From NCBI RefSeq assembly GCF_034531035.1, contig NZ_JAVRBY020000016.1, positions 34,521 through 98,520 of the forward strand: a stretch of 64,000 nt of DNA. Direction: 5' to 3'. Position 1 is the stretch's first letter. Every line of letters begins with the position of its first letter. Shown here piece after piece: positions 1 to 15,181 of this stretch. This DNA comes from Nostoc sp. DedQUE02 (lineage in GTDB: Bacteria; Cyanobacteriota; Cyanobacteriia; Cyanobacteriales; Nostocaceae). Both the position numbers and the translations under genes were made by a program. The notes below the pieces were generated by a model. That model made no database searches. It was not told where the DNA came from and saw only the letters and a list, made by a program, of their open reading frames with translations.

Positions 1-602
1 TTGGCGGCAATCACTTTCACGCCATCTTTTGCTAAGTCTGCCCAAGTATTGATACCTTTAGGATTGCCTTCACGGGTGACGATCGCAGCAACCGATTTAC
101 TAACAATACCATTTCTCGGAGCTTCGGTTTCCCAACCTGATTTAATCAAACCTGCTTGCTGAATTTTGCTGACATCCAGGGGAAGTGCCAAATGTACTAT
201 ATCTGCTTCTTGCGAACCGTTAATGACAGCAGCCGCTTGAGCGCCAGAACCTCCATAGCTTTGCTCAAATGTAACGTTTTGGTTATGTTCTTGCTTCCAC
301 TTTTCGATAAATTTGGGAATTATCTGGTCATGAGCGGCTTTGGTGACAGAGAAAGATACAAGTTTTAGCTTAACATCATTTTTGCTAGCTGAACTGCTTC
401 CAGAACAGGAGGCAACTGCTATACTCAAAAAAATACTTGTTAAAAACAGACTCACAAAGCTTTGTACACTGCGTCCATTCAACCAACTTTTAATTGCGTG
501 TTGATACCGGAGTTGTATACTCTGCAAAGCTTTCATGACATAAGGCTGTATTCCTTCACTTAGAAATTTACTTAACTGTGTCGGTTGTTGCGACTTGCTC
601 AT
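1..602 (-). CDS. sbp: Sulfate ABC transporter substrate-binding protein; its 3' end lies beyond the left edge of the window
   Basis: Manual minus-strand translation from ATG 602 (alternative ATG 536) reads ...VASCSGSSS...LVSFSVTKAAHDQIIPKF...FEQSYGGSGAQAAAVING...IVTREGNPKGINTWADLAKDGVKVIAA. These are typical Sbp/CysP motifs with a lipobox-like Cys. The ORF track misses it because it runs off the window. Confidence 0.92.
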   Translation of the reverse strand, partial: MSKSQQPTQLSKFLSEGIQPYVMKALQSIQLRYQHAIKSWLNGRSVQSFVSLFLTSIFLSIAVASCSGSSSASKNDVKLKLVSFSVTKAAHDQIIPKFIEKWKQEHNQNVTFEQSYGGSGAQAAAVINGSQEADIVHLALPLDVSKIQQAGLIKSGWETEAPRNGIVSKSVAAIVTREGNPKGINTWADLAKDGVKVIAA

Positions 603-936
603 TAGAATCACCCCTAAATCTACGGTATTTCTACATGCATACCGTGATTAGGAGAATTATAGGGTATATAGAATAATATTTATCATCTGGATTAATTTTT
701 TTTTACTCAATGAGCAATTGACGATCAAAACTAGCAAATAAATCTGATTTACCAAGGCATTGTAGAAGACAGTTTTTTTGCTGGATAGCAAAACAATCTG
801 ATTGCATACATAATATTTGCTAAAAAGATGTGATTATTAATACAAAAAAATATTGGAAGAGCGATCGCCTCTATTGTGAGAATATATAATCAGGCGATCG
901 CTGACTTGTAGAAATACTTATACAGCTTTTTTGCTA

Positions 937-1326
937 CTATAACCAGTTCTCTAATTGCAAATTAAGTATATTTTCAAAATCTTTGATATTGTTTATAACC
1001 AAAATATCATTACGAGAACGGACAACAGCAGCAATTAGTGCATCTACTTCTCCTGTTGGTCTACCAATTTGCCTCAATTCACTTTGGATTTTACCAAATT
1101 CTCTGGCAGCATCTATATCAAATGGCTCTATAGGTAATAGTTCAGTTAGTTGTGCTAGTGTTTCTAAATTTTTTTCAACTTGTTTAGAACAGTAAACACC
1201 TTTGTAAAGTTCTGAAACTACTATTGTAGATAGATAGCATTGGCTGAAATAGCGATTGAATACAGGTATTACTTGGGAATTCCCGTTAAGCAGTGCAATA
1301 CAAATGTTAGTATCTAAGAGATACAT
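937..1326 (-). CDS. vapC: PIN-domain (VapC-like) toxin of a type II toxin-antitoxin pair
   Basis: MYLLDTNICI N-terminal PIN motif, acidic residues in VVSELY and GEVDALIAA, 129 aa. Confidence 0.92.
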   Translation of the reverse strand: MYLLDTNICIALLNGNSQVIPVFNRYFSQCYLSTIVVSELYKGVYCSKQVEKNLETLAQLTELLPIEPFDIDAAREFGKIQSELRQIGRPTGEVDALIAAVVRSRNDILVINNIKDFENILNLQLENWL

Positions 1327-1337
1327 TAGTCTTTATT

Positions 1338-1613
1338 CTATTTATCTATTGAGTTTATTACCCTTCCTTGGTAAGTATGACGCTGCTGGTTAATTTCAGC
1401 AAAGATATCTATCAACTCTGTTTGTTCTTGCCAAACTCCAAATAATTGATTCAATTTTGCTAGTCTCTGTTCATCTGTTAAGTCTAGTTTTGCTACTACA
1501 GGTTCAGTAGCAGGTAGTTCTAGATTAACGATTATTTCTGCCCCATCAGGAATACTGTGAATTTGCTCTAATAATTCAATAGTTTGGCCACGTTTGATTC
1601 CTCTAATTTGCAT
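1338..1613 (-). CDS. Putative antitoxin (small protein directly upstream of vapC)
   Basis: Ends 11 bp before the vapC start. Probable start is MQIRGIKRGQTIELLE at 1613; the ORF track extends it to 1646. The antitoxin role is inferred from position and size. Confidence 0.65.
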   Translation of the reverse strand: MQIRGIKRGQTIELLEQIHSIPDGAEIIVNLELPATEPVVAKLDLTDEQRLAKLNQLFGVWQEQTELIDIFAEINQQRHTYQGRVINSIDK

Positions 1614-1764
1614 TATCTGCTTACTCCTGTAATCTTTACTATTCAAATCTTAGATATTTTCTCATTACTTAATCTTAACTGATTAACTGATGTAGCGTAG
1701 ACGTGTAGCTATTGGTCGCCAGACATCGCCTTTATTATGAGAACATATAATCAAGCAATAAGGT

Positions 1765-2394
1765 TTAGGCACCCACCAACTGAGTCAGGCGTTTCAATAT
1801 ACGTAACACGTCGTACAATTCATTTCCAGGGTTACGCATCAAAAAACCCTTTGATAAAGCATAACGTGGTGGATTTCCTTTCACTAATTTAACGAAAATA
1901 AACTCGCTTCCCGTGGCAATCATACCAAAACTAGGTTGATCGTTATCTCGATTTCCTAACAGATAAGCAAGAATTTGTGCGAGTCCTTGTTCCACTGAAA
2001 ACGAAGCTCTTTTAGACTCAATAATCATTAGCCAAAATTGCTCTTTTAAAACTAAGGTATCTATTCTACCTTTGATAATTACATCTTCATCTGGCACAGC
2101 AATATCTATAGATTCTTCTGATTTTACATAATACGGAGCTAGATAAAAATCCCCAATAAAAAGCAATGGGTCTACAACTGCCATTCTGACTACATCTTCT
2201 AGTAAAGGTGGGTAATTAAGAAGATTAAAATAACCCGTTTTTACTTTATCTAAAAGTTGTTTATCTAAATCATTAATTTCTGGTAAATCTTCTTGCCATT
2301 CCCAAAAGAATGAGCCATCCAAAACTAAGTCAATACCAAAGTTATCAATTAAATAACGTAAGTCGATGGCCTTTGCTGGGATTGTTTGCGTCAT
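1765..2394 (-). CDS. Stand-alone HsdR-N-like PD-(D/E)XK domain protein (cyanobacterial family)
   Basis: KGRIDTLVL...MIIESKR nuclease-type motif followed by QILAYLL and GMIATGSEFIF. Confidence 0.75.
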   Translation of the reverse strand: MTQTIPAKAIDLRYLIDNFGIDLVLDGSFFWEWQEDLPEINDLDKQLLDKVKTGYFNLLNYPPLLEDVVRMAVVDPLLFIGDFYLAPYYVKSEESIDIAVPDEDVIIKGRIDTLVLKEQFWLMIIESKRASFSVEQGLAQILAYLLGNRDNDQPSFGMIATGSEFIFVKLVKGNPPRYALSKGFLMRNPGNELYDVLRILKRLTQLVGA

Positions 2395-2517
2395 ATATTT
2401 TGGAGAGTGGAAAATAGGGCTTACACAAAATACCTGTAAAACTCTGATTTATCCGTGCCCTTTGCGCCTCTGCGGTTTGTTATTCCATAATAATTGTTAA
2501 TTACAAATTATTTTATC

Positions 2518-3771
2518 CTAGTCATTAGTTGCTGCTTCCAGCCAAACTTCCACTTCATCTGCTAGCAACTTTTGTGCTGCATCCATCATTGAAGTTGCGA
2601 TATCTTTAAGGTCTTCGCGGTTATTCAAGTAAGTTTTTAAAGCTTCCATTGGGTCGATGCTACTACTTGCGCTCAATTCAGGAATTCGGGGTCTGGCTAA
2701 TTGACTCACTAATTCTGCTTGAATGGTGTAGGTATGAGCGGGACTTAAAGCAGTATGTAGAGAGGAACTGTCAATTAAATCCATCTGTTCGGAGCGGAGT
2801 TTGTAAATTAGCCGCACAACAGCATCTTGAATATCATACTTGGCGATCGCTTTCATTAACACCGCTTGCGGCTCGTCTGCTTTTGAGACATCCACTTCAA
2901 TGGTGCGGAAAGTCCGAACTGTTAAAGGGCAAAATTCCCACTCAACGCTTCCCCGCTCCAGTTCTATCATCACATAGCCTTTGTCTTCTTTTTCTTCACT
3001 AAAATCTACCCGCTCAATACTCCCTGGATAAATCACCGGCGGGTTGTTAGATTTATTCAGATTTTGGTGGCGGTGGACGTGTCCCAATGCTACATAATCA
3101 AAACAAGGTCGCGTCAGCAAAGATAAGGGCAGAGTAAAGCCTTTACCCACCGCCAAAAATCTTTCTGCGCCCAAGCTAGCATTGTCAGCCATCAAGTGAG
3201 CTAAAAGGATAGTGGGTACATCTGGGTCAAGACGGCGAACTTCCCCTTCTAAAACAACTCGCAGACGTTCCGTTAATAGTTGGTTGACTTCCGCCAAAGA
3301 TAAACCTTCAGTCTCTTGGCGAGTCATCAAAGTCGAACGGGTCAGCCAAGGCAGGGTGATTACTTGCACTTTGCCATTACGGGTTTCGATACAGTGCGTA
3401 GTTAATGTATCGCCAACTACAAACCCTGGCACTCCCAAAGTGCGGTAAATATTTAAACTCGCTCCTCCCTGTCCTTGGGAATGTTGGTCGTGGTTGCCTA
3501 CCAACAGCACTGTCGGAATATTGGCATCCATCAGACGGCGAAACTGGCTAGCAAACGCTTGTTGTACATAAGGCGGTGGTGTCGCATCTGGGAAAGCATC
3601 GCCACCAAATATCACCATATCAACAGCATCTGTCAACGCTCGGTCAATACATATAGACAATGTATTGACAAAATCCTCCAATCGTGTGTTTAACCCAGTT
3701 GCCGGATTAATACGTCCGTGGGAGAAGCCGCTTCCCATGTGAATGTCGGAAAGGTGGAGAATTTTAATCAT
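2518..3771 (-). CDS. sbcD: Exonuclease SbcCD subunit D
   Basis: Metallophosphoesterase motifs HLSDIH, GGDAF, GNHD, LGHVH and YPGSIERVDF. Confidence 0.95.
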   Translation of the reverse strand: MIKILHLSDIHMGSGFSHGRINPATGLNTRLEDFVNTLSICIDRALTDAVDMVIFGGDAFPDATPPPYVQQAFASQFRRLMDANIPTVLLVGNHDQHSQGQGGASLNIYRTLGVPGFVVGDTLTTHCIETRNGKVQVITLPWLTRSTLMTRQETEGLSLAEVNQLLTERLRVVLEGEVRRLDPDVPTILLAHLMADNASLGAERFLAVGKGFTLPLSLLTRPCFDYVALGHVHRHQNLNKSNNPPVIYPGSIERVDFSEEKEDKGYVMIELERGSVEWEFCPLTVRTFRTIEVDVSKADEPQAVLMKAIAKYDIQDAVVRLIYKLRSEQMDLIDSSSLHTALSPAHTYTIQAELVSQLARPRIPELSASSSIDPMEALKTYLNNREDLKDIATSMMDAAQKLLADEVEVWLEAATND

Positions 3772-4024
3772 ACATTTATCTCAAGTATTAACTGGCTATT
3801 TGATGTTAAATTGCCCATGCCAATCATAATATCGCCTACGGCATTTTACGTTTCAATAATATGTAACGTCGTTACATTGAGATTTTTCTAAGGTGTAGTC
3901 CAAACAAACGACAACCCTTATATCAGCAAATTGTAACAAATGATAATATTTATCAGAAATATTACTTATAATAAAAGTATTAAAACAGAAGTTAATTGCT
4001 GTACAGCACTGTAATTAAAAGCGA

Positions 4025-7000
4025 ATGAGTATTTCGGAACCTCAGAAAATCGAAGACAAAATCAATTATTGGAAGAAAAAGCTGATTGGTGAATCCAACA
4101 AAAATCCATTAGTTGATTTACGCCAAAATCAAAACAGATTAGTTCCTCTTTTAAGAGATCCTTCATTTTTATATGATCATTTTACAGGAGATGAGCCTGA
4201 ATCATTACCAATTAGTGAACTGGAACCTAAGCAGACTGATGAAGACCCGTTAAAGCTTTTAGATGAACTTCGTAAAGAGGCTAAATCAACCATTGAAGAA
4301 AAGGGTTTTAATAGTCTTTTTTTAGTCATTAATGCCTTAACATGGTTTAATACCGAAAATATTCATGAAAAATATGTTTCTCCTATTCTGCTTATTCCAG
4401 TGAGATTAGAAAAAATAGGTAGAAAGTCATTAGAATTTACTCTTCACCCTATAGATGATGATATTACTGTTAACTTTACTTTAGTCAACAGGTTACGGGA
4501 TTATGGTATAACGCTGCCTGACAGTGACAGGATTAAAGAATTGAGCTATGAAGATTTTTTCAATGAACTTCGTAGTGCCATCGCTGCTAAACAATCTGAG
4601 TGGAAAGTAAAAGAAACAGCACACATTACTTTGTTTCCAGACGCAAAAGCAGCAATGATTCAAGACCTGGAACAAAATCAGGAAAAGATAGCTAATCATC
4701 CCATACTGAAGGCTTTGGCTTCAAAAGAAACATCGAACAATATCAAGAGTACCACCATTTTTGAAGAGCCAGAACTTGATCAAATAGACCCTTCATTAAT
4801 TTATCAGATACTTGATGCAGACTCCAGCCAGCAAGTAGTTATAGAAGCTGTCAAGGCAGGTTCTAATTGTGTTATACAGGGGCCTCCTGGTACAGGAAAA
4901 AGTCAAACTATTGTTAACATCATCACTGAGTTAATTGGTCAAGAAAAAAAAGTCCTTGTAGTTGCAGAAAAGCAAACTGCCTTAGAAGTTGTTTTTAAAA
5001 GACTAAAAAAAAGCCAATTAGAAAATATCTGTCTGAATTTACATCATGAAGTGACAAAAAAAGCCAAAGATTTATTCAATCAGCTAGTACAAACTTACGA
5101 TGAGCTTTCAGAAAGTAATGAAGCACAACAGGAAGATTGGGAAACCTTCTTTAAACCTTTACGCGACTATCGACAATTTCTCAACGATCATACAAAAGGT
5201 TTGCATGATAAAAAGCAACCACTAAAAAAGTCTGCTTTTAATTTGTATGGCGAAATTCGTAGGTTAGAAAGAGAAGACAAAGATATTCCTCAACTAGAGT
5301 TTAATTTCTCTAATTTGCAAGATTGGCCAGAAACTAAATTGTTAGATGCAAAAAAATTATTAGAAAAACTTGGCCAATTTGAGGCTATATTCCGGGGTAG
5401 ACAAAAAACCCTATGGTCAAGTAGTCCCGTAAAATATCCTTGGTCGTCTGCTATATATCAAGATTTGCGTAGAAATCTTGACAGTTTTAGCGCTGGCATA
5501 AAACTGGCTCAGAATACTGTATCTTCATTGGTACAACTACTAAATATCAACGAAACAATTGAAAATTTGTATGATTTAGAAGAGTTACAACCAGCAGTTA
5601 ATCATATCCTTAATGCTCCATCAAACATTGAAACTTGGTCATTGCCAACAGATTTAGATGATTTGGCACAGTTGTATTTAAACTTAGAAACAGACATTAG
5701 GAATTATCAATCAATTAGTTACGATCTCAATTCCAAGTATGTGCGAGATTTTTTTACTTTCGATTTATTAAAAATAAGGAAAATTTTTGCAAGAAGATTT
5801 ACAGGGATCTTTCGCTTTATTAAACCAGCTTATTTGAAATGGCTATATGATAAGAGGCGCGAACGTCAACGTCTCATCGCTCTTCGACAAGACCACAAGC
5901 GCATTTCTGAGCAAGAGTTAATGGCAGATATTGAAAATGCACTTGAGCGTCAACATATTTTAATTAAATTACAAGACCGCAACTACCAAGCTCGTCAGGT
6001 TTTTGGTTCTTCCTTCCAGAAAGAAATGACGAATTTGCAAAATATCCAGCAAGGTCTTGAATGGTTGGAAAACCTAAATAAAAATCTTCTATTAGATAAA
6101 GAAACAGTAGCCGCAGTTCTTACTTCAAGAGAACGCTATGAACAACTAGGAGAATTATTCAAATCTTTGGAAGTATCTTTAAACAAAATTCAAGACGGCT
6201 GCAAATTCTTAAATAAACACTTCCCTAAAGAAAGACTAACAGCATTAGATGTATTAAAGAGAACACCTTTAAATGAAATTGAAGATTTCCGAAGACAAGC
6301 CTATAATGAGCTTGATCTATTCCAACAGTGGTTGGACTGTCAAGAAATTGTACATAAATTAGAAGCTATTGGAACAGAGGAATTTTTAGCTAAACTACGA
6401 GACACCGACATTTTACCAGATAAGTGGTATTCTGTTTTACGGAAAGGCTTTTATGAAAATTGGCTGCGACACATACATGATGATAATTCTAAGTTGCGAA
6501 AGTTTAGCCAGAATTTGCACGAACAGAGAATAAATGAATTTTCAGAAAAAGATAAACAACAGTATGAGGTTGCAATAAAACGGTTGAGACAACTCCATGC
6601 ACAACGTTGCCAAGATTGGTTAAAGCAGCCAGAAGCACAGGCACAAGTAAGCAATCTCAAAGGGGAAATCAAAAAGAAAAGTAGACAACAAAACATCCGT
6701 CAATTTATCGAGAAGAATGCTCAAATTGTTACTACTCTTAAACCATGTTGGCTGATGAGTCCTTTAGGGGTTTGTCAATATGTAGATGCAGACGCAGTGG
6801 AGTTTGATGTTGTTATCTTTGACGAAGCTTCTCAAGTTCGTACTGAAAATGCAGTATCGTCTATTATGCGAGCAAAGCAGCTAATTGTTGTAGGCGATAG
6901 CAAGCAGTTACCCCCTACAGCTTACTTTGAAAGTGCAGGAGCCGATGATAGCGACGATGAAGAGGAAGAAGTTTATGAAAATTTGCTAGATGAGTGTTCT

Positions 7001-8041
7001 AAATTATCAATTATGATCACTCGTACTTTAAGTTGGCATTATCGTAGTCAAGACGAAAGCCTAATTGCCTTCTCAAACCAAGAATTTTACGGGTCAAAAC
7101 TTATTTCTTTCCCTAACCCTGCAAAAGATGTTAGCAGAGGCGTACATTTCCATTTTGTTGAAGGGGGAATATATGACCGTGGTGGTCGCGGAGATAATAT
7201 TCGTGAAGCTGAAGCAGTCGCACAGCTAACAGTCCAGCATTTTAAACAACAGTCTCAGCAATCTTTGGGTATTATTACCTCAAGTAAACAACAAGCAAAA
7301 GCCATTCAAGAACAAATAAAACAAATAACTATTCAACATCATGAAATAGAAGAATTTTGTCAAGAAAACTCTGATAAGTTTTTTGTTAAATCAATTGATG
7401 ATGTTCAAGGTGATGAACGAGATGTAATTTTCCTAAGCTTTGGCTTTGGTTTTGATAATAAAAATCCGGGTAAGTTGAATCACAGCTTTGGCTACTTCAG
7501 TAAAAAGTAGCAAGATTTAGGTAAACGAAGATTAAACGTTGCAATAACTCGCGCTAAATACAAGTTTGTATTAGTCGCTTCGATTAAACAGGAGAATATT
7601 AACCCCGAAGTAAGTCCACAAGCTGCATTAATTAAGAAGTATTTTACATACGTTCAAAGTGGCGGTCAAAAACTAGATGAAAAGCGTGATGATGACCTGT
7701 CTCACTTAAACTTACCTTTTGAAGAAGATATATATCAGGCTTTAACAGAAAAGGGATACGCAGTTAAGAAACAGGTAGGTCGTTCAGCTTATCCAATCGA
7801 CTTAGTTGTGATGGATAATTCCAAACCCGAAAATGAAGAGTCTCTTCTGGGGATTGTGTGTGATGGCGGAACTTATAATAAATATCCTACAGCACGCGAT
7901 CGTGATCGCCTCCGCCAAGAAGTCTTAGAAAAATTAGGCTGGCGCATTTACAGAATTTGGTCTCGTGAGTGGGATCGCAACAGGGAAGAACAAATTAATA
8001 GGCTCATAGCGCATATAGAAAATCTCCGCAACCAGAAATAA
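4025..8041 (+). pseudogene. DUF4011 / SF1 (Upf1-like) helicase / Vsr-DUF559-like protein (Gao Hhe-like architecture), interrupted by an in-frame TAG at 7508-7510
   Basis: Motifs GPPGTGKSQT, FDEASQ, VGDSKQLPPT, HYRSQDESLIAFSN and VQGDERDVI precede the stop. The same frame continues for 176 codons with helicase motif VI (RRLNVAITRAK) and TARDRDRLRQEVLEKLGWRIYRIWS up to TAA at 8041. Confidence 0.88.
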
Positions 8042-8091
8042 ATACAATTAGTAATTTACTGTTGAAAATAGGAATTTGAATAAGACTTGGA

Positions 8092-9993
8092 TTGCCTATG
8101 ATAATAGCCAAAATTGAAGAACTGTTAACTAAAATTCAACAGTTACAATCAATTATGATTGCGGTATCAACTGATTCATATCGTAATCCCATTAGAGAGA
8201 AAGAAAAATTATACACAAAACTATATAGAGAGATTGTTGACATCATAGAGTTTCTTGCAGAAGAAGGGGTATTAATCGAAAATCATAATCCTTGTAAGTC
8301 TCTTTCAGATTGGCGCGATCGCTGGTCATCTTTAGAAAGGGGATATGCATTAAAAGGACGATATGTTCACGACCTATACACTACCTCTTTAAGTCAAATT
8401 GATCTTGTTTTATGTCAGCACTATGTTGAAGACAAATCTCATCAACAGCTAGTTGAAAATTGGCAAATATCACAATTTGAAGACCTAATAGCAAAAATTA
8501 AAAAATTGAAGGGAATCATGATTTCGGTTGCTATTCAGGGAGACCCTGTTTATTTAATTAAATCTGAGGATGAGGATTATAGAAAACTCTACCGAGAGTT
8601 GACATTACAAATAAGTATCCTTCGGCAAATAGGTATACCTATTCTACATCCCAACAATTTTAGATCGCTTTGGCAGTGGTATCATTACTGGTCAATGAAT
8701 CTAGAAAAATCGTATGATGTACGAGAGAGATATATTGATGATCTCTATGAAAATATTCTTAAACCAATTGAGAGAGCCTTGAAGAAATATCATCTACAAT
8801 CAACTTCTAGTGAAGAGTTTATTCAAGATTTGCAGCGTCGTTTTAAACAAAAGATATCTATTCAACCTATTATTACTACGATAGTTAGTACAGAATTTAG
8901 TGATACACTACAAGAATATACTCCTAATTTAGAAGATTACAAGCAGCCAGAAGCTTTAGAGAATATTCCTAATTCATTATCAATTGAAAGAACTCAAGCT
9001 GTTAACAATTTTCTTTCTACAAATATAGATTTCAATTTAAATTGGACACCTGAGAGCGTAATGAATCCTGAAATATTTTTAGAGCAAAATGATGTTGTAT
9101 ATTTAGAGAATAGTCTAGAAAAATTCTTTGCTACAAAGTTTGATAATGCAAGTAGTTGGAGAAGCGTATTTAGCTCATCAGGTGTTGAAGATTCGTTTAT
9201 TAGACCTCTAATTTTTATTAACAATCCTGTAGAATTCAGCAACAGAGTAGTAGCAAAATTTAAAAATTATAAAGTCTCTAATCAGCGAATAGATCATCAC
9301 CCGATGGTGAAATTCTTACAGTATCTACTCAATCGAAAAGAAAGTTATGAGTTTGAAGACCAAGATATAGAATTATTCACTAAATTAGCTGAACGAGGTC
9401 GGGAAAATCTCAACGCTTTAAAGGCTTGTAACACTGTTTGCAGAATCGAATCACCCAAAGGAATGGGTATTGGGACAGGAGTATTGATAGGTAAAAATTT
9501 ATTACTAACCTGCAATCACATTTTTAGCAAAACTCAAGTTAGACAAGCTTGGATACGTTTTAACTACAATGCTCACAGCCGTCAGTTAGACAATAATTTA
9601 TTTGAACTAGATATGACTTTTTTGAGCTATCATAATCGCCCTGACTACGCTTTAGTCAAAATAAAAGATAATCCTCAGCAACAAAAAGCTATTTTTATTA
9701 ATGAAACATCTATATTAGATAGCGGTCAAGATGTTCGTATTATCCATCATCCACAAGGAAACCCAGTTATAATTTCCGATTTTGGACAAATTACACAAGT
9801 AGGAGAAGATTACATTGACCATAATGTGAAAACTGATGATGGTTCCTCTGGCGCACCAATTTTTAATCGTCAATGGGAATTGATTGCAATTCATCAAGGA
9901 AATCCCGGTATAGGACGTACCGTGATTCCAGGTTCAACAGGTGGTATTCCTATCCGTGCTATCTGGCCTCAAATTTCATCATATTTAAATTGA
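8092..9993 (+). CDS. Multidomain protein: tandem ~97-aa N-terminal repeat, EAD-like adaptor, C-terminal trypsin-like serine protease
   Basis: Intact catalytic triad in TCNH, PDYAL and GSSGAP. Internal duplication at about aa 8-104 and 129-227. A helical region from MNPEIF (ATG 9061) resembles effector-associated domains (inference). Confidence 0.85.
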   Translation: MPMIIAKIEELLTKIQQLQSIMIAVSTDSYRNPIREKEKLYTKLYREIVDIIEFLAEEGVLIENHNPCKSLSDWRDRWSSLERGYALKGRYVHDLYTTSLSQIDLVLCQHYVEDKSHQQLVENWQISQFEDLIAKIKKLKGIMISVAIQGDPVYLIKSEDEDYRKLYRELTLQISILRQIGIPILHPNNFRSLWQWYHYWSMNLEKSYDVRERYIDDLYENILKPIERALKKYHLQSTSSEEFIQDLQRRFKQKISIQPIITTIVSTEFSDTLQEYTPNLEDYKQPEALENIPNSLSIERTQAVNNFLSTNIDFNLNWTPESVMNPEIFLEQNDVVYLENSLEKFFATKFDNASSWRSVFSSSGVEDSFIRPLIFINNPVEFSNRVVAKFKNYKVSNQRIDHHPMVKFLQYLLNRKESYEFEDQDIELFTKLAERGRENLNALKACNTVCRIESPKGMGIGTGVLIGKNLLLTCNHIFSKTQVRQAWIRFNYNAHSRQLDNNLFELDMTFLSYHNRPDYALVKIKDNPQQQKAIFINETSILDSGQDVRIIHHPQGNPVIISDFGQITQVGEDYIDHNVKTDDGSSGAPIFNRQWELIAIHQGNPGIGRTVIPGSTGGIPIRAIWPQISSYLN

Positions 9994-10013
9994 TTTAACA
10001 GGGTCATATTTTT

Positions 10014-11126
10014 ATGGGTATTTTCCAAAATGTATCTGAAACTTTCAGCCGCGAGGCTAAAAAATATACAACTATTTTCCTACCAAAACATCGAGTTGAT
10101 AAAGACTACGATGATACACCTATTCGTGCAGGTGAAGCCTATTGTCGCATCTGGCTAGAGGATATGAATTTAGCTAAAGATGTAGACTGGTTTAAACAAC
10201 GATATCCAGTTGTTAATGCTGCTGTCCGTTTCCATTATGACTCTAAGTTAGTAACTATTCCTTTTTTAGCTGCGCCCGGTCAGTTAAAAGATTTGGGAAG
10301 CAACAATTTAGATAAAGTCATTCTAGAGAGATGTCCTCTTACGCCTTTATTTCCCTTTAATCAAGGTTTAGTAGAATTTGAAGCTGGCTTATTTAGCATG
10401 GCTGCGAGTGACTCCATCGGCAAATTTATCGAGACAATGGGAAGATTTGCCAAATTGTTACCTACGCCTCAACTTTCAACTGTGTTGAATCTAGCAGAAC
10501 CCGTATATCGGGGAATAGAAGATTTACTTGATATTGGAGAACGCCGGCTAGAGTTAGGTTATCGACAAACTTTTTCTGATGCTGACGGTGGTAGTAGTAA
10601 TTTCCTTAGAGAGGGGTACTTTGCCGTAATTTTGGCGGAAGAACGAGAGATTCAGATGGAAAATCTTTGCGTTGTCAAAGATAACCTACGGCTTGGCTCT
10701 CCGGGAAATACTAAAGTATTTCTCCGTGATAGTAAGCCTTTTAAGGGTTTCAGCTATATGTTATTTCGCATAGAAAAGCGCAAACAGCAAGATTGGGAGT
10801 CGTTAGAAACTATAAAAGAGCTAGTTACTCAAGCTCAAAATGCTATTTATTCAGGAGAATATGACAAGGTAAAGAAATTTATTTTACCTGCTATTGAAAT
10901 AGCTATTCTTCAAAGTCCTGATGTAGCTAAAGCTGACCGACGCAATATGATCTTAAAAATTGGAGAGGAATTGAAGGAAGTTGGTTTGCAATCTACAAAA
11001 GTGCAAAAGCGATCACTGTATTCAATTATGCAGCGACCTTTGCCAGAGATTGACGCAGCTACAGAAGCTGAATTAGCTTCTCTAGAGCAGCTTTTCCAGC
11101 AAAATGGTCAAGAAATTAGCCTCTAA
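10014..11126 (+). CDS. Uncharacterised 370-aa protein, co-oriented and 20 bp downstream of the protease gene
   Basis: Long ORF with ATG start and no signal peptide. The N-terminal part looks beta-rich with an amphipathic helical insert; the C-terminus looks helical. No family recognised. Confidence 0.8.
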   Translation: MGIFQNVSETFSREAKKYTTIFLPKHRVDKDYDDTPIRAGEAYCRIWLEDMNLAKDVDWFKQRYPVVNAAVRFHYDSKLVTIPFLAAPGQLKDLGSNNLDKVILERCPLTPLFPFNQGLVEFEAGLFSMAASDSIGKFIETMGRFAKLLPTPQLSTVLNLAEPVYRGIEDLLDIGERRLELGYRQTFSDADGGSSNFLREGYFAVILAEEREIQMENLCVVKDNLRLGSPGNTKVFLRDSKPFKGFSYMLFRIEKRKQQDWESLETIKELVTQAQNAIYSGEYDKVKKFILPAIEIAILQSPDVAKADRRNMILKIGEELKEVGLQSTKVQKRSLYSIMQRPLPEIDAATEAELASLEQLFQQNGQEISL

Positions 11127-11238
11127 ATTTGTTGTCTAACACTGTTATCTAACAGCAAAGGCGCAGAGTAAGGAAGGTCGGGGGAAATTTTTCTTTTCTT
11201 CTATTCCCCACTCTCCAATCCCTACTCCCCACTCACTT

Positions 11239-11964
11239 TTAAATATGAATTCCACATTCTGTTTTATCACTTCCTCGCCAGCGTCCGGCGCGTTCGTCTT
11301 CGCCTTCGCCTACTTTGGTGGTGATGGGTTGGTCGCCGATGCTGGGATAACCTTGGTCGTGGAGAGGGTTGTAGATGACTCCATGTTCAGCCACATAAAC
11401 CCAGCTGTCTTGACGAGTCCAAGTAGCTATGGGATTTACTTTCAGCCGACCTTTATTATCAAATTCAAATATGGGCATATTTGCACGGGTTACTGCTTGG
11501 TCACGGCGGCGTCCGGTAATCCAAGCAACGCTGTTGAGTTCGTCTAAACCCCGTAGTAGTGGTTCAATTTTTGTAATGTGGTGGAATTTGGCAATATCCG
11601 TATCCCAGAGTTTGTCGCCGTATTTGGCTTCAAAGGCTTCGCGGGTGTCTAGGTCTGGAGTTTTGAAAGTTTGCAAATCCAGGTTGTAGATTTGTTCAGC
11701 TTTGGCTACTAATTCTAGGCTTTCAGGGAAGTGGTGCAAAGTATCGAGAAAGATTACAGGAACGGGATGCTTCAGTTCGCTGTAAAGAATATGGGTAATT
11801 ATCATGTCATCCACGTTAAAGGCGCTTGTTTGCACCAGTCCCGTTGGGATATTCTCTATAGACCATGCCAGTATGTCTTTAGGACTGGCAGTTTCAAATT
11901 GCTCGTTTAATTTGTCTAAGTCAAAAGCGATCGCTTGGTTTCTAGATGCCGTGGAGACTGTCAT
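11239..11964 (-). CDS. cysH: Phosphoadenosine phosphosulfate (PAPS/APS) reductase
   Basis: FLDTLHHF, WITGRRRDQ, YNPLHDQGYPSIGD and the C-terminal ECGIH motif. Confidence 0.96.
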   Translation of the reverse strand: MTVSTASRNQAIAFDLDKLNEQFETASPKDILAWSIENIPTGLVQTSAFNVDDMIITHILYSELKHPVPVIFLDTLHHFPESLELVAKAEQIYNLDLQTFKTPDLDTREAFEAKYGDKLWDTDIAKFHHITKIEPLLRGLDELNSVAWITGRRRDQAVTRANMPIFEFDNKGRLKVNPIATWTRQDSWVYVAEHGVIYNPLHDQGYPSIGDQPITTKVGEGEDERAGRWRGSDKTECGIHI

Positions 11965-12800: not shown

Positions 12801-13055
12801 TTGACAGGAATTTGACTATTGTCCGATTTTGTAGATATCTCGGCTAAACCCCTGAAGAAAAAGAGCTTGCTTTAACAAATAACTAAGCTTAGTGCCATTC
12901 GCTCGTAGTTGAAGTGAGTTTTGTAGCCAGTTAGGGAAAACTATTGACAGCTATACATGGTATTTAATTAAGAGATTTTGGTGTTTCACTGATTTTCGCT
13001 TAACTAAGGGCCATTGATGCTTGTCCCATCTAAACATCGAGAGAATAACACTATC

Positions 13056-13592
13056 ATGGTTGACACATCTTCGCTCGACAACCAAATAAAATCCTTAGAA
13101 TTACCGATCGAGCGCGACCAGTTTCTGCGTACAATGATTCGAGAATTGGCTGGAACCCTACAAGATGTAGTTGGGATTGAACAGGCAGAAGGCTTTTTGA
13201 ATGTGGTCGGCTATCGAACAGGTCAACATGTCAATCAGATTTACCAAAACGCTTTGCAATTGTCAAATCTTTCTCGTGAACAGGTAACTGTTGTCCTCGT
13301 AGATTGGAAACGCCGGATTCAAGGTGACTTTTATGTGATTGAAGAAACCGATGAGAAGATCGTTTTAGGCAATCGCAAATGTCCTTTTGCAGAACAGGTA
13401 GAAGGACGCGAAGCTATGTGTGTTATGACATCAAACATTTTTGGCGCGATCGCAGCCGACAACCTCGGCTACGCTAGAGTCGAGTTACAAGACACGATTG
13501 CCAGAGGCGCACAAGAATGCAAAATCGTTATTTATCTCAAACCTAGCGAAGTATTAGACGAGTTTACAGCACAAGAATACTTCAAAGCATAG
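13056..13592 (+). CDS. V4R-like / methanogen output domain 1 (MetOD1)-type protein
   Basis: FLRTMIRELAGTL, GDFYVIEE, RKCPFAE...MCVMTSNIFG and IARGAQECKIVIYL give a V4R-type Cys pattern. Probable start is ATG 13056; the track starts at 13014. Confidence 0.75.
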   Translation: MVDTSSLDNQIKSLELPIERDQFLRTMIRELAGTLQDVVGIEQAEGFLNVVGYRTGQHVNQIYQNALQLSNLSREQVTVVLVDWKRRIQGDFYVIEETDEKIVLGNRKCPFAEQVEGREAMCVMTSNIFGAIAADNLGYARVELQDTIARGAQECKIVIYLKPSEVLDEFTAQEYFKA

Positions 13593-13846
13593 TAGCAGCG
13601 TTAAACGGGACATTTGCAGACTATCACCCTCTCCCTGTAATAATATGTCCCGGCTGAAGTTGATGCCCCAAAGCGTAGCTTATACCAGATTAGTACAAAA
13701 GGTATTATTTAAGATTTCTGAAGCAGCTTTGTGGTCAAAGCTTTTAATCCAAAATCTAAAATCGAAAATTAGTATTAGTCTCTTCACTTTTACCCCATCA
13801 GTGCTATGAGCAGTGGTAAAGATCCTCGCTTCAGTACCTCCAGATC

Positions 13847-15181
13847 ATGATACGCGATCAATTTTTAAAGTTTGCCCAGGTTTTACCAGAACCTCTGCTG
13901 CTTGTGACTAGCGCAGGTGAAATTTTAGCAGTTAATCAGCCTGCTGCCAGACTCTTTAACAAGACCAGTAAAGCACTGATTGGTCAATGTCTTACCGAGT
14001 TTGTTACTGATTCTTCAGAGAAAGTCATCGACTATCTTCGAGCTTGCTCTCAAAGTCGTCAAATGATTTTGGGAGCTTTAACTATCCAGCAAGCCCAAGG
14101 AGAGGAAATTGCTTGTCGTAGTCAAGGATCTTTGATCGAGCCGCGATCGCCAGAAAGCCCAGCCATTAATTTACTGCGGTTAGAAAAGCGAACAAGCGAT
14201 CAATTCGTTGTGCTTAACCAAAAAATTCATGCGCTGAGTAAAGAAATTCAACAACGCCAACGCATTGAGGCAGAACTCGCACAATCGAATGAAACCTTAA
14301 GACAGACTCTACTCAAACTGCAAAATGCTCTTGAAGCTGTGCAAACGGAAAAGATGTCTGGACTAGGACATTTAGTTGCAGGAATTGCCCATGAAATTAA
14401 TAATCCAATAAGCTTTATTTATGGAAATCTGACCTATGCGGGTGAATACTATAATGATTTGCTGAAACTGATTCAACTCTATCAGCAAGAATATCCTAAT
14501 CCGAGTCGAGTGATTCAGCAGGAAATTAAAGCCCTGGATCTTGATTTTATGCAAAAGGATATTAAAAAATTACTCCAATCAATGCAGACAGGTTCCGAGC
14601 GGATTAGCGAGATTGTTAAATCTTTGCGAAACTTCACTCGATTAGACGAAGCAACATTCAAGGTGGTTGATATTCATGAGGGTTTAGAGGCTGCATTGAT
14701 GATTTTACAAAGTCGCCTTAATCCTAGCGATCGCTATTCTGGTATTGAAGTGATTAAGGAATATGGAGAATTGCCTTGGCTTTCTTGTTCTCCTGGGCAA
14801 CTCAATCAAGTGTTTATGAATCTCCTGAATAATGCGATCGATGCTTTAGAAGAAGCTGAACAAGTGCGATTGTCTGCGACAGACCGTAGATCATCGCCAG
14901 AATTAATACGAAATTATCCCAGTCGCATCTGGATTCACACGGAGAAACTAAACGATCACTACATTAGAATTCGCATCAAGGATAATGGTAACGGAATCCC
15001 CGCCCAGATTCATCATCAGATATTTAATCCCTTCTTCACCACCAAGCCAGTCGGCAAAGGTACAGGATTAGGATTATCGATTTGTTACCAAATCATTGAG
15101 AGCCACAATGGTCGAATTAATGTGATATCTGATCCAGATTGGGGAACTGAATTTAGTATTGAGTTACCCATTGTTTACTGA
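13847..15181 (+). CDS. PAS-domain sensor histidine kinase
   Basis: N-terminal PAS ([10 protein letters not shown]), H-box [11 protein letters not shown]-box [14 protein letters not shown]-boxes DNGNGI and GKGTGLGL. Confidence 0.93.

What the first reader, a model, noticed from the sequence alone, without database searches (positions are those of the whole stretch)
4025..11126. Candidate novel defence island: Hhe-like helicase, repeat-EAD-trypsin protease and an unknown 370-aa protein
Seen: three co-oriented genes with gaps of only 50 and 20 bp sit between housekeeping sbcD and cysH. The block is visibly AT-rich, and I found only one HIP1 site in 7 kb (about 8314). Established: stand-alone DUF4011-helicase-Vsr proteins (Gao Hhe) are anti-phage, and trypsin-like proteases with adaptor domains act in bacterial conflict systems, including CARD-protease-gasdermin systems. 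Inference: the three genes form one module in which a nucleic-acid sensor/helicase works with a protease that activates or destroys the third protein. I do not know this combination as a named system.
Basis: partly seen in the sequence, partly recalled or inferred. Interest (0 to 1): 0.85.

Follow-up and report, generated by a model that had tools for sequence, protein, structure and literature searches.

The report
Helicase-linked protease and latent effector module
A Nostoc chromosome carries, inserted between two housekeeping genes, a three-gene conflict (probably anti-phage) module: an Hhe-like helicase-nuclease (broken here by a stop codon), a trypsin-like protease with a helicase-specific adaptor domain, and a protein from a large unnamed family that always travels with proteases.

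Summary
Window 4025-11126 holds three co-oriented genes between sbcD and cysH. The block has low G+C and few HIP1 sites.

- **Gene 1:** a DUF4011/SF1B helicase with an MTES_1575 nuclease. Its best match is the PADLOC candidate PDC-S37, and it is related to ProA and Hhe. A genuine CAG-to-TAG nonsense codon interrupts it.
- **Gene 2:** two copies of an unnamed helical domain, then EAD8, then a trypsin fold with an invariant catalytic triad.
- **Gene 3:** 370 aa with no hit in Pfam, NCBIfam, PADLOC or PDB.

Comparative genomics supports one module.
- The protease and gene 3 are adjacent in nearly all of 60 genome loci.
- The helicase is present exactly when the protease carries the N-terminal repeat (26 loci with both, 17 with neither, 0 discordant).
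- Without the helicase, the short EAD8-trypsin plus gene 3 pair sits next to MoxR-vWA, iSTAND or STAND-NTPase systems that carry a matching EAD8.
- Gene 3 belongs to a family of at least 1,386 clusters. All 11 of its tested members longer than 700 aa are fused to CHAT, caspase, C25 or subtilase peptidases.
- Close relatives have an empty cysH-sbcD junction, so the block is accessory.

Most likely mechanism (inferred, untested): the helicase senses foreign DNA, the protease is activated, and it cleaves gene 3 to release a death effector. I rate this a new variant of a known logic.

The parts
3772..4024 (.). Left border of the accessory block: the sbcD-helicase intergenic region, presumed to hold the operon promoter
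   Evidence: Similarity to the empty-site contig L061 stops at the sbcD start codon. The promoter scan found no more sites than chance, so no promoter is assigned.
4025..8041 (+). Gene 1: DUF4011 / Upf1-like SF1B helicase / MTES_1575 nuclease (1338 codons), a nonsense pseudogene in this strain
   Evidence: Pfam: DUF4011 1.8e-18, AAA_11 1.1e-20, AAA_12 1.1e-10, MTES_1575 3.2e-34. PADLOC: PDC-S37 1047+215 bits, Hhe 337+104 bits. NCBIfam: ProA 807+177 bits, Hhe 549+140 bits, both below their cut-offs. Nearest solved relatives are IGHMBP2, Upf1 and Sen1.
4091..4495 (+). DUF4011 domain (aa 23-157)
   Evidence: Pfam PF13195, 67.4 bits
4880..4903 (+). Walker A motif GPPGTGKS (aa 286-293)
   Evidence: Read from the translation
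6821..6835 (+). Helicase motif II, DEASQ (aa 933-937)
   Evidence: Read from the translation
7508..7510 (+). In-frame TAG (codon 1162), six codons before motif VI. It cuts off motif VI and the nuclease domain.
   Evidence: Orthologues have Gln here (GYFSKKQQDLGKRRLN). Contigs of 4 independent runs are identical.
7526..7555 (+). Helicase motif VI, RRLNVAITRA (aa 1168-1177), downstream of the stop
7718..8017 (+). MTES_1575 / DUF559 / Vsr-like restriction-endonuclease-fold domain
   Evidence: Pfam PF18741, 117 bits
8092..9993 (+). Gene 2: repeat-repeat-linker-EAD8-trypsin protease (633 aa from TTG 8092; 631 aa from ATG 8098)
8092..8466 (+). Repeat copy 1 of an unnamed all-helical domain (aa 1-125)
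   Evidence: BLASTP copy 1 against copy 2: 33% identity, E 2e-20. hhalign probability 99.9%. AF2 helical bundle with pLDDT about 90. No Pfam or PDB hit.
8467..8841 (+). Repeat copy 2 (aa 126-250)
   Evidence: As for copy 1. The domain is found only in loci that also have the helicase.
8854..9075 (+). Predicted disordered linker (about aa 255-328). The recombination breakpoint between the helicase+repeat block and the EAD8+trypsin block falls in or near it.
   Evidence: AF2 pLDDT 22-34. Identity mosaic across loci.
9091..9366 (+). EAD8 (effector-associated domain 8), aa 334-425
   Evidence: Pfam PF19961, 27.5 bits against a cut-off of 27. hhalign to the short-protease EAD8 gives probability 99.8%. 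Helical in the AF2 model.
9472..9891 (+). Trypsin_2 serine protease domain. Triad: His476 (9517-9519), Asp518 (9643-9645), Ser586 (9847-9849).
   Evidence: Pfam 71 bits. The triad columns are invariant in 58 homologues. Foldseek matches FAM111A, DegP, DegS, HtrA and V8 at probability 1.0. Positions.
10014..11126 (+). Gene 3: 370-aa member of an unnamed protease-associated family, the proposed latent effector
   Evidence: No Pfam, NCBIfam, PADLOC or PDB-sequence hit. 114 close clusters. 1,386 clusters at E<=1e-3. Fusions to peptidases.
10065..10781 (+). Gene 3 beta-rich N-terminal domain (aa 18-256) with an inserted helical hairpin (aa 133-174)
   Evidence: AF2 model: pLDDT 80.6, pTM 0.81. Only weak C2-domain, lysenin and pLGIC beta-sandwich matches in PDB.
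10806..11114 (+). Gene 3 C-terminal helical region (aa 265-367). It includes the loop GLQSTKVQKR (aa 324-333) and the conserved SLYSIMQ motif.
   Evidence: AF2. Invariant S334 and L335 and near-invariant I338, M339, Q340. In many family members and in all but one of the 11 peptidase fusions, the profile match ends near position 320, so the tail is clade-specific.
11127..11238 (.). Right border of the accessory block (gene 3-cysH intergenic region)
   Evidence: Similarity to the empty-site contig L061 resumes at the cysH stop codon.

Best explanation
Window 3772-11238 is an accessory three-gene conflict module, most likely anti-phage and acting by abortive infection. It is inserted between the otherwise adjacent core genes cysH and sbcD.

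Proposed mechanism:
1. The DUF4011/Upf1-like helicase-nuclease (PDC-S37, ProA and Hhe relatives) recognises or translocates on foreign nucleic acid.
2. The protease is docked to the helicase through its two N-terminal helical repeat domains.
3. Helicase engagement activates the protease. This may work by clustering, with EAD8 providing homotypic contacts.
4. The active protease cleaves the gene 3 protein, probably in its C-terminal helical or tail region.
5. Cleavage releases a toxic beta-rich domain, possibly membrane-active, that kills or arrests the infected cell.

What is shown: the gene content, domain architecture, co-occurrence, mosaic evolution, accessory status and decay of the locus.

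What is inferred: the sensing role of the helicase, docking through the repeats, cleavage of gene 3, and its toxicity.

In this particular strain the helicase carries a real nonsense codon before motif VI. The module is therefore probably inactive or only partly functional here.
For: **Defence-type helicase.** PADLOC PDC-S37 scores 1047+215 bits and Hhe 337+104 bits. NCBIfam ProA and Hhe are its best families.

**Protease plus gene 3 is a conserved pair.** They are adjacent, in the same order and 20-30 bp apart, in about 50 of 60 genome loci. These span cyanobacteria, Chloroflexota, Desulfobacterales and Ca. Vecturithrix.

**Helicase and repeat domain go together.** 26 loci have both, 17 have neither and 0 are discordant (Fisher 2.4e-12). 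Identity to the window co-varies at Spearman 0.90-0.94. EAD8 plus trypsin instead track sbcD and cysH at 0.5-0.78.

**The trio moves as a unit.** L018 and L027 lack both flanking genes within reach. L004 has the trio beyond cysH.

**The cassette serves other sensors when the helicase is absent.**
- MoxR-vWA with a third component bearing EAD8 (hhalign probability 95%, E 3e-8)
- EAD8-iSTAND
- EAD8-caspase-NB-ARC-WD40
- NB-ARC plus WD40
- NACHT-HEAT

**Gene 3's family is tied to proteases of unrelated folds.** All 11 tested members longer than 700 aa have a C-terminal peptidase: CHAT in 6, C25 in 3, caspase C14 in 1, subtilase S8 in 1.

**The protease looks active.** The catalytic triad is invariant.

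**The block is accessory and decays.** Empty cysH-sbcD junctions occur in 5 of 5 close contigs. G+C and HIP1 density are low. Copies are often broken: L009, L015, L030, L046, L054, L056 and the window itself.

**Precedent.** Proteolytic licensing of latent death effectors (Pepco/Trypco, EACC1, MBL, alpha/beta-hydrolase, gasdermin) is documented in PMC12642450. EAD-coupled trypsin effectors are described in PMC7159879 and PMC8195603.
Against: - No experiment supports any step. No phage-defence, toxicity or cleavage data exist for this trio or for gene 3's family.
- PDC-S37 is itself only a candidate system, and the helicase scores below NCBI's cut-offs for both ProA and Hhe.
- No sequence similarity links the repeat domain to any part of the helicase. 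Docking is inferred from co-occurrence alone. Simple physical linkage could also produce the co-variation, because the repeats lie next to the helicase 3' end.
- The loci are not phylogenetically independent, so the Fisher value overstates the support.
- Gene 3's fold has no characterised structural relative. Toxicity and membrane action are therefore analogies.
- No EAD8 partner is encoded in the locus or in the 64-kb window, so the role of EAD8 here is unexplained.
- Some apparent pseudogenes in MAG loci may be assembly errors.
Confidence: 0.6

Rival explanations
1. Two independent systems sit side by side. One is a single-gene Hhe/PDC-S37-type helicase-nuclease that restricts phage DNA on its own. 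The other is a separate protease plus gene 3 pair. They share a hotspot between sbcD and cysH but have no functional coupling.
For: Hhe, ProA and PDC-S37 are catalogued as single-protein systems. The protease plus gene 3 pair occurs widely without any helicase. Defence genes commonly cluster.
Against: The protease's N-terminal repeat domain is found only with the helicase, and every helicase locus has it (26/0/0/17). The helicase and repeat domain form one co-varying block whose breakpoint lies inside gene 2. The trio keeps the same order and spacing in other genomic contexts (L018, L027, L004). Elsewhere the short protease plus gene 3 cassette always sits beside a sensor or NTPase system, so a sensor-less pair would be unusual.
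Confidence: 0.2
2. Gene 3 is not the death effector. It is a regulator, inhibitor, chaperone or adaptor of the protease. The real effector is the helicase's own MTES_1575 nuclease (licensed by proteolysis), or it is other cellular proteins degraded by the protease.
For: Gene 3 has no recognisable enzymatic or pore-forming fold. The helicase carries a nuclease domain. Earlier papers treat the EAD8-trypsin protein itself as the effector (PMC7159879; 10.1101/2023.09.22.558884).
Against: Gene 3 accompanies the protease in systems that have no nuclease-helicase. Its family is fused or paired with four different peptidase folds. That is the pattern of known protease substrates such as gasdermin, Pepco and EACC1 (PMC12642450). 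It is not the pattern expected of a fold-specific inhibitor.
Confidence: 0.13
3. The block is a housekeeping or DNA-repair locus of Nostocales. In this reading the helicase-nuclease works with SbcD, and the other two genes have lineage-specific physiological roles. It would not be a conflict system.
For: About 20 Nostocales genomes carry it at the same chromosomal position next to sbcD. The helicase belongs to the Upf1/IGHMBP2/Sen1 clade, which also has housekeeping roles.
Against: Close relatives have empty sites, including one with 95% identical cysH and sbcD. Divergence is extreme relative to the flanks: helicase 50% against sbcD 97% in L005. Truncations, deletions and an insertion are frequent. 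Composition is atypical. The protease plus gene 3 pair is associated with STAND, MoxR-vWA and SIR2 genes elsewhere.
Confidence: 0.04

Closest known systems
Hhe (Gao et al. 2020), PADLOC candidate PDC-S37 and NCBIfam 'anti-phage protein ProA': DUF4011 helicase-nuclease defence proteins
   Same: The N-terminal DUF4011, the split Upf1-like SF1B helicase core and the C-terminal MTES_1575/Vsr-like nuclease are all present. Profile matches are strong: PDC-S37 1047+215 bits, ProA 807+177 bits, Hhe 549+140 bits.
   Different: These are catalogued as stand-alone proteins of 1550-1900 residues. This one has 1338 codons. It lacks about 450 N-terminal model positions of ProA and the last 110-200 positions of all four models. 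It scores below both NCBI cut-offs. It is always followed by the repeat-EAD8-trypsin gene and gene 3. In this window it is also a nonsense pseudogene.
EAD-coupled trypsin effectors of the vWA-MoxR / iSTAND / STAND 'ternary' conflict systems (Kaur, Burroughs, Iyer, Aravind 2020 eLife PMC7159879; 2021 eLife PMC8195603)
   Same: It has the same EAD8-trypsin protein and the same downstream gene 3. In 17 helicase-less loci this cassette lies beside MoxR-vWA, EAD8-iSTAND or EAD8-STAND proteins, exactly as the 'EAD principle' predicts. Like those systems, it is enriched in filamentous, multicellular cyanobacteria.
   Different: The window's locus has no MoxR, vWA, iSTAND or STAND gene adjacent and no second EAD8 copy. 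A helicase-nuclease takes the sensor position. The protease has gained an extra two-copy adaptor domain that is absent from the ternary-system versions.
Protease-effector modules with proteolytically licensed death effectors: Trypco/Pepco-trypsin, EACC1-caspase, MBL, alpha/beta-hydrolase, bacterial gasdermin (Evans et al. 2025, PMC12642450)
   Same: A protease gene is tightly paired with a small-to-medium non-enzymatic protein. The pair is attached to many alternative sensors. The partner family is associated with trypsin, caspase/CHAT and subtilase folds, as is reported for gasdermins (this last point is from my own knowledge).
   Different: Gene 3 matches none of these families. Pfam, which has Trypco models, gives no hit at E<=10. 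No gasdermin appeared among the 50 listed Foldseek matches, and nothing in PDB scored E<=1e-3. At 370 aa it is larger than Pepco or EACC1. Cleavage and toxicity have not been demonstrated.
Hachiman (HamAB), a helicase sensor controlling a separate effector (PMC12278908)
   Same: The concept is the same: a helicase surveys DNA and controls a partner effector encoded next to it.
   Different: The proteins are unrelated. HamB is a different helicase family and HamA is a nuclease. Hachiman has no protease step. Here, helicase loss appears to be tolerated while protease and gene 3 stay intact (the window, L015, L030). That argues for activation by the helicase rather than restraint by it.

Membership tests
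Hhe (DUF4011 helicase-Vsr anti-phage protein) | N-terminal DUF4011 domain | tested here: met
   PF13195, E 1.8e-18, aa 23-157
Hhe (DUF4011 helicase-Vsr anti-phage protein) | SF1 helicase core (AAA_11/AAA_12) followed by a Vsr/DUF559-type nuclease | tested here: met
   AAA_11 1.1e-20, AAA_12 1.1e-10, MTES_1575 3.2e-34, DUF559 3.4e-4
Hhe (DUF4011 helicase-Vsr anti-phage protein) | Score above NCBIfam equivalog cut-off (NF042953, 2000 bits) | tested here: not met
   549 + 140 bits for the two halves
Hhe (DUF4011 helicase-Vsr anti-phage protein) | Acts as a single-gene system | tested here: not met
   Every locus with this helicase clade also had the repeat-bearing protease, usually with gene 3 still present (26 of 26 loci with enough upstream sequence). 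Function itself is not testable here.
ProA (NCBIfam NF058533) | Score above equivalog cut-off (1500 bits) over the 1903-position model | tested here: not met
   807 + 177 bits. Only model positions 450-1709 are covered.
PADLOC PDC-S37 (candidate single-gene system) | Full-length match to the PDC-S37 profile | tested here: met
   1047 + 215 bits over model positions 90-1344 of 1550. The C-terminal 200 or so positions are absent. The tool shows no cut-off.
PADLOC PDC-S37 (candidate single-gene system) | Intact open reading frame | tested here: not met
   TAG at codon 1162, before motif VI and the nuclease
EAD-coupled effector of vWA-MoxR / iSTAND / STAND conflict systems (Kaur et al.) | Effector protein carries an EAD (here EAD8) fused to a peptidase | tested here: met
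   PF19961 at 27.5 bits against a cut-off of 27 in the window. Homologues score 40-53 bits. hhalign probability 99.8%.
EAD-coupled effector of vWA-MoxR / iSTAND / STAND conflict systems (Kaur et al.) | A second copy of the same EAD on an adjacent core (sensor/NTPase) component | tested here: not met
   The helicase against the EAD8 profile gives probability 0.1%. No other EAD8 ORF exists in the 64-kb window. The feature is met in helicase-less loci: c10, L026 iSTAND, L020 STAND. The rest of the genome could not be searched.
EAD-coupled effector of vWA-MoxR / iSTAND / STAND conflict systems (Kaur et al.) | Adjacent MoxR AAA+ and vWA genes, or a STAND NTPase | tested here: not met
   The neighbours are sbcD and cysH. 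The MoxR-vWA pair is present only in the helicase-less loci.
Trypco1/Trypco2 (Pepco) trypsin-co-occurring proteins | Match to the Pfam Trypco models; small protein | tested here: not met
   No Pfam hit for gene 3 even at E<=10. It is 370 aa.
Bacterial gasdermin | Gasdermin fold | tested here: not met
   Foldseek of a confident model (pTM 0.81) against PDB found nothing at E<=1e-3. No gasdermin was among the 50 listed matches. The profile found no PDB sequence at E<=1.
Bacterial gasdermin | Encoded next to, or fused with, caspase-like, trypsin-like or subtilase proteases | tested here: met
   Adjacent to trypsin in about 50 loci. Fused to CHAT, C14, C25 or S8 in 11 of 11 long members. This is a shared context, not membership.
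Proteolysis-licensed death effector (functional class, PMC12642450) | Cleaved by the cognate protease, and a cleavage product is toxic | not testable with these tools
   This requires co-expression toxicity tests and in-vitro cleavage assays.

The most novel reading that the evidence does not exclude
Gene 3 founds a large, unnamed family of protease-licensed death effectors: at least 1,386 clusters at 50% identity, a new beta-rich fold with a helical tail, and even a giant-virus homologue. The trio would then be the first defence system in which a DUF4011/Hhe-type helicase signals through a dedicated docking domain to a protease, rather than acting only through its own nuclease. The helicase plus docking domain would form a swappable, diversifying specificity cassette.
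Probability: 0.4. Interest if true: 0.8.

Novelty: new variant of a known kind. Interest (0 to 1): 0.68.

Why it matters
- **A new sensor class for proteolytic immune signalling.** If the model holds, proteolytic signalling in bacteria extends to a helicase-nuclease of the Hhe, PDC-S37 and ProA group, whose own mechanism is poorly understood.
- **A new effector family.** Gene 3's family would join gasdermin, Pepco and EACC1 as a protease-associated effector. It is large and absent from Pfam, NCBIfam and PADLOC.
- **A new adaptor domain.** The unnamed repeat domain appears to be a helicase-specific adaptor.
- **A natural experiment in modular immunity.** The sbcD-cysH locus in Nostocales shows three recombination blocks with different histories, presence/absence polymorphism and frequent decay.
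- **Practical use.** The two unnamed domains and the trio could be added to defence-annotation tools, which currently report only the helicase.

Tried and rejected
1. **Literature on 'ProA' and 'PDC-S37'.** Four searches found no paper describing either. Their names rest only on the NCBIfam and PADLOC tables.
2. **Literature on DUF4011 with a protease.** The search was uninformative.
3. **A hidden copy of the repeat domain or of EAD8 in the helicase.** BLASTP and hhalign gave nothing (probability 1.4% or less). I therefore rejected a homotypic 'EAD-principle' link between helicase and protease.
4. **EAD8 hidden in gene 3.** Rejected (probability 0.5%).
5. **Pfam at E<=10 for the repeat domain and for gene 3 split into halves.** Only noise.
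6. **PDB sequence searches for both.** Nothing.
7. **Foldseek of the full gene 2 model.** Trypsin-fold hits filled the list, so the fold of the repeat domain could not be compared.
8. **Gasdermin-like fold for gene 3.** Not supported.
9. **Promoter and terminator scan of the block.** Counts did not exceed chance, so it gave no information on the operon.
10. **Protein search with the N-terminal 330 aa of gene 2.** It returned only 6 proteins, apparently a limitation of the word index. The full-length query was needed.
11. **Mobile-element signatures.** No integrase or transposase ORF of 60 aa or more lies inside the block, and I saw no target-site duplication when comparing its borders by eye with the empty site.
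12. **The metagenome scan with cysH.** It gave mostly distant non-cyanobacterial loci. Only L061-L065 were informative.

Full report
**1. What is in the sequence**

Between sbcD (2518-3771, minus strand; TIGR00619, 243 bits) and cysH (11239-11964, minus strand; TIGR02057, 333 bits) lie three plus-strand genes.

- Gene 1 runs from 4025 to 8041 and is interrupted by one in-frame TAG at 7508-7510.
- Gene 2 runs from 8092 to 9993. The database gene call starts at the ATG at 8098.
- Gene 3 runs from 10014 to 11126.

The block has 35.5% G+C against 40.2% for the window, which puts it in the lowest 1% of 7.1-kb windows. It holds one HIP1 site (8315) against a median of five per 7.1 kb.

**2. The stop codon is real**

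Orthologues read GYFSKKQQDLGKRRLN where the window reads GYFSKK*QDLGKRRLN. This is a CAG-to-TAG change six codons before helicase motif VI. Contigs assembled from four independent public runs, from three studies, carry exactly the window sequence at assembler word depth of up to about 596. In this strain gene 1 is truncated before motif VI and before the nuclease domain. Genes 2 and 3 are intact.

**3. Gene 1**

Pfam finds DUF4011 (aa 23-157), a split AAA_11/AAA_12 SF1 helicase core and, after the stop, the MTES_1575/DUF559 nuclease fold.

| Library | Family | Score (two halves) | Cut-off |
|---|---|---|---|
| PADLOC | PDC-S37 | 1047 + 215 bits | none shown |
| PADLOC | Hhe | 337 + 104 bits | none shown |
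| NCBIfam | anti-phage protein ProA | 807 + 177 bits | 1500 |
| NCBIfam | Hhe | 549 + 140 bits | 2000 |

Gene 1 is thus a relative of both NCBIfam families but passes neither equivalog cut-off. It lacks the last 110-200 positions of all four models. The nearest solved structures are IGHMBP2, Upf1 and Sen1. I found no paper describing ProA or PDC-S37.

**4. Gene 2**

- The first 250 residues are two copies of a domain of about 120 residues (33% identity, E 2e-20; hhalign probability 99.9%).
- The AlphaFold2 model gives two confident helical bundles (pLDDT about 90), then a disordered linker (residues 253-326, pLDDT 22-34).
- A helical EAD8 domain and a trypsin fold follow.
- EAD8 is just above the Pfam cut-off in the window (27.5 against 27 bits). 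It is clear in homologues and by profile comparison.
- His476, Asp518 and Ser586 are invariant in 58 homologues.
- Foldseek matches FAM111A, DegP, DegS, HtrA and V8 proteases.
- The repeat domain has no Pfam or PDB-sequence relative.

**5. Gene 3**

- It has no hit in Pfam (even at E<=10), NCBIfam, PADLOC or PDB sequences.
- The model is confident (pLDDT 80.6, pTM 0.81). It shows a beta-rich domain (18-256) with an inserted helical hairpin (133-174), followed by a C-terminal helical region (265-367).
- Foldseek against PDB gives nothing at E<=1e-3. There are only weak beta-sandwich resemblances to C2 domains, lysenin and pLGIC ectodomains. No gasdermin is among the listed matches.
- Against predicted viral structures there is a single hit, an uncharacterised Hokovirus protein (E 1.3e-7).
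- The family is large. There are 114 close clusters, mostly cyanobacterial. A profile search found 1,386 clusters at 50% identity with E<=1e-3, of which 298 have E<=1e-30.
- All 11 tested members longer than 700 residues have the gene 3 domain at the N-terminus and a peptidase at the C-terminus. The peptidases are CHAT (6), C25 (3), caspase C14 (1) and subtilase S8 (1).
- A family that pairs with trypsin as a neighbour and fuses with three other peptidase types behaves like a protease substrate or effector.

**6. Comparative genomics of the trio**

A scan of one genome per species returned 60 loci. The protease gene lies immediately upstream of gene 3 in about 50 of them. These include Chloroflexota, Desulfobacterales and Ca. 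Vecturithrix.

Among loci with enough upstream sequence, 26 have both the helicase and the N-terminal repeat domain. Another 17 have neither, and none is discordant (Fisher 2.4e-12). The loci are not phylogenetically independent.

The trio also occurs outside the sbcD-cysH context. L018 and L027 lack both flanking genes within reach. L004 has the trio beyond cysH, with a gene 3 remnant left at the old site.

**7. What replaces the helicase elsewhere**

In helicase-less loci the protease is short (about 310 aa, EAD8 plus trypsin). The pair lies beside one of several systems:

- MoxR (AAA_5) and vWA (CoxE-like) genes. These come with a third component of about 365 aa whose N-terminus is EAD8 (hhalign probability 95%, E 3e-8), often followed by an FGE-sulfatase-domain protein.
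- An EAD8-iSTAND protein (L026).
- An EAD8-caspase-NB-ARC-WD40 protein (L020).
- NB-ARC plus WD40 (L036).
- NACHT-HEAT (L040).
- In L035, where the protease is not adjacent (about 7 kb away on the opposite strand), the gene downstream of gene 3 is SIR2-like.

These are the vWA-MoxR, iSTAND and STAND conflict systems, and they follow the 'EAD principle' of Kaur et al. (PMC7159879, PMC8195603). Other EAD8-trypsin homologues carry HEAT, beta-propeller, lectin or receiver domains at the N-terminus.

The protease plus gene 3 pair is thus a portable output cassette that plugs into different sensors. In the window's type the sensor position is held by the helicase, and the link is the repeat domain rather than a second EAD8. 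The helicase has no EAD8 (probability 0.1%). No other EAD8 ORF exists in the 64-kb window.

**8. Mosaic evolution**

I compared identity to the window across 20 trio loci.

- The three helicase segments and the repeat domain co-vary (Spearman 0.84-0.94).
- EAD8 and trypsin track the flanking sbcD and cysH (0.5-0.78).
- Gene 3 follows neither.

For example, L005 has sbcD at 97% and cysH at 95%. Its helicase is only 50% and its repeat domain 46%, while trypsin is 90% and gene 3 is 78%. The unit 'helicase plus repeat domain' is therefore exchanged or diversified as one block. Its breakpoint lies inside gene 2, near the disordered linker. This fits a specificity module (sensor plus its adaptor), although plain physical linkage could contribute.

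**9. Accessory status and decay**

Five of five cyanobacterial metagenome contigs with a close cysH have cysH followed directly by sbcD, 35-416 bp apart. One of them, L061, has 95% identity in both genes. Alignment with L061 places the borders of the block at the sbcD start codon and the cysH stop codon. I saw no direct repeats or mobility genes there.

Broken copies are common:

- Internal helicase deletions or splits: L015, L054, L030, L009.
- Split proteases: L005, L029, L018.
- Gene 3 interrupted: L046.
- A large deletion: L056.
- The window's nonsense codon.

Roughly half of the well-covered trio loci are intact, though some breaks in MAGs may be assembly errors.

Helicase-defective copies, including the window, keep an intact protease and gene 3. 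That suggests the helicase activates the output arm rather than restraining it (inference).

**10. Mechanism**

The best-supported reading has four steps:

1. The helicase-nuclease senses or translocates on foreign nucleic acid.
2. The protease is tethered to it by its repeat domains.
3. Engagement activates the protease, possibly by clustering through EAD8.
4. The protease cleaves gene 3 protein to release a toxic domain.

Candidate cleavage regions are the loop GLQSTKVQKR (324-333), just before the invariant SLYSIMQ motif, and the conserved basic stretch EKRKQQDWE (254-262). In many family members, and in all but one of the 11 peptidase fusions, the profile match ends near position 320. The tail is therefore the clade-specific part, as expected if it matches the cognate protease.

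All of these steps are inference by analogy with Pepco, EACC1 and gasdermin (PMC12642450). None was testable here.

**11. Rivals**

- Two independent neighbouring systems (confidence 0.2). The perfect helicase/repeat-domain association and the breakpoint inside gene 2 argue against it.
- Gene 3 as a regulator, with the nuclease or bulk proteolysis as the effector (0.13). Its association with four peptidase folds and with nuclease-free systems argues against it.
- A housekeeping repair locus (0.04). Empty sites, decay and divergence argue against it.

**12. Novelty and verdict**

The logic of sensor, protease and latent effector is known, and so are the helicase family and the EAD8-trypsin protein. 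Three things appear to be new:

- the coupling of an Hhe/PDC-S37-type helicase to a protease arm;
- the unnamed repeat domain that marks this coupling;
- gene 3's family as a large, unannotated protease-associated family.

None of these was found in Pfam, NCBIfam, PADLOC or the papers I could read. I rate the finding a new variant of a known kind, with interest 0.68. In this particular strain the module is probably disabled by the nonsense codon, so an intact orthologue should be used for experiments.

Noticed in passing
window 937-1646 (- strand): A VapC-type PIN toxin (937-1326; NCBIfam VapC 7.8e-33) is followed by a 102-aa ORF (1338-1646) with no family hit, presumably its antitoxin. This is a type II toxin-antitoxin pair just upstream of the sbcD side of the block.
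   Followed up: partly
window 1765-2394 (- strand): A 209-aa ORF between the VapBC pair and sbcD has only a weak match to the N-terminal domain of type I restriction R subunits (HSDR_N, E 0.0026, below cut-off). The low-G+C stretch 1-2500 may be further accessory DNA.
   Followed up: no
window 13014-15181 (+ strand): A MetOD1-domain protein (13014-13592) is followed by a PAS-HisKA-HATPase histidine kinase (13847-15181). This looks like ordinary signalling genes downstream of cysH.
   Followed up: no
gene 3 model against BFVD (A0A1V0SF49, Hokovirus HKV1): The only significant structural match of gene 3 anywhere is an uncharacterised 323-aa protein of a giant virus (E 1.3e-7, probability 1.0, TM about 0.45). 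It may be a captured effector or decoy, or contamination in the viral assembly.
   Followed up: no
L004 (Scytonema sp. PCC 10023) 1-11098: A C-terminal remnant of gene 3 (residues 299-364) sits between sbcD and cysH. A complete helicase-protease-gene 3 trio lies on the other side of cysH. This suggests loss at the old site together with relocation or re-acquisition.
   Followed up: partly
L046 (Nostoc sp. NIES-4103 'plasmid1') 8203-10753: Gene 3 is split by about 1.4 kb that contains a 442-aa ORF on the opposite strand, probably an insertion sequence. The whole sbcD-trio-cysH region is annotated there as lying on a 170-kb plasmid.
   Followed up: no
L061 10724-10801 (empty site) and window 11170-11235: The 78-bp cysH-sbcD spacer of the empty site consists of short tandem heptamer-like repeats (TTTGTCC / AATGACA types). 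The window's gene 3-cysH spacer has CCCCACT-type repeats. These are Nostoc short repeat elements at the junctions.
   Followed up: no
homologues of gene 2 (P0340, P0342, P0368, P0369, and the class of about 682 aa, P0344-P0367): EAD8-trypsin proteins carry other N-terminal modules: HEAT repeats, a ricin-type lectin, a PQQ beta-propeller, a CheY-like receiver, and an unannotated region of about 380 aa. The protease N-terminus is therefore a general attachment point for sensors or adaptors.
   Followed up: partly
gene 3 family members P0144 and P0136: Two mid-sized family members carry non-protease C-terminal fusions: an MC1 chromosomal-protein domain and TPR repeats.
   Followed up: no
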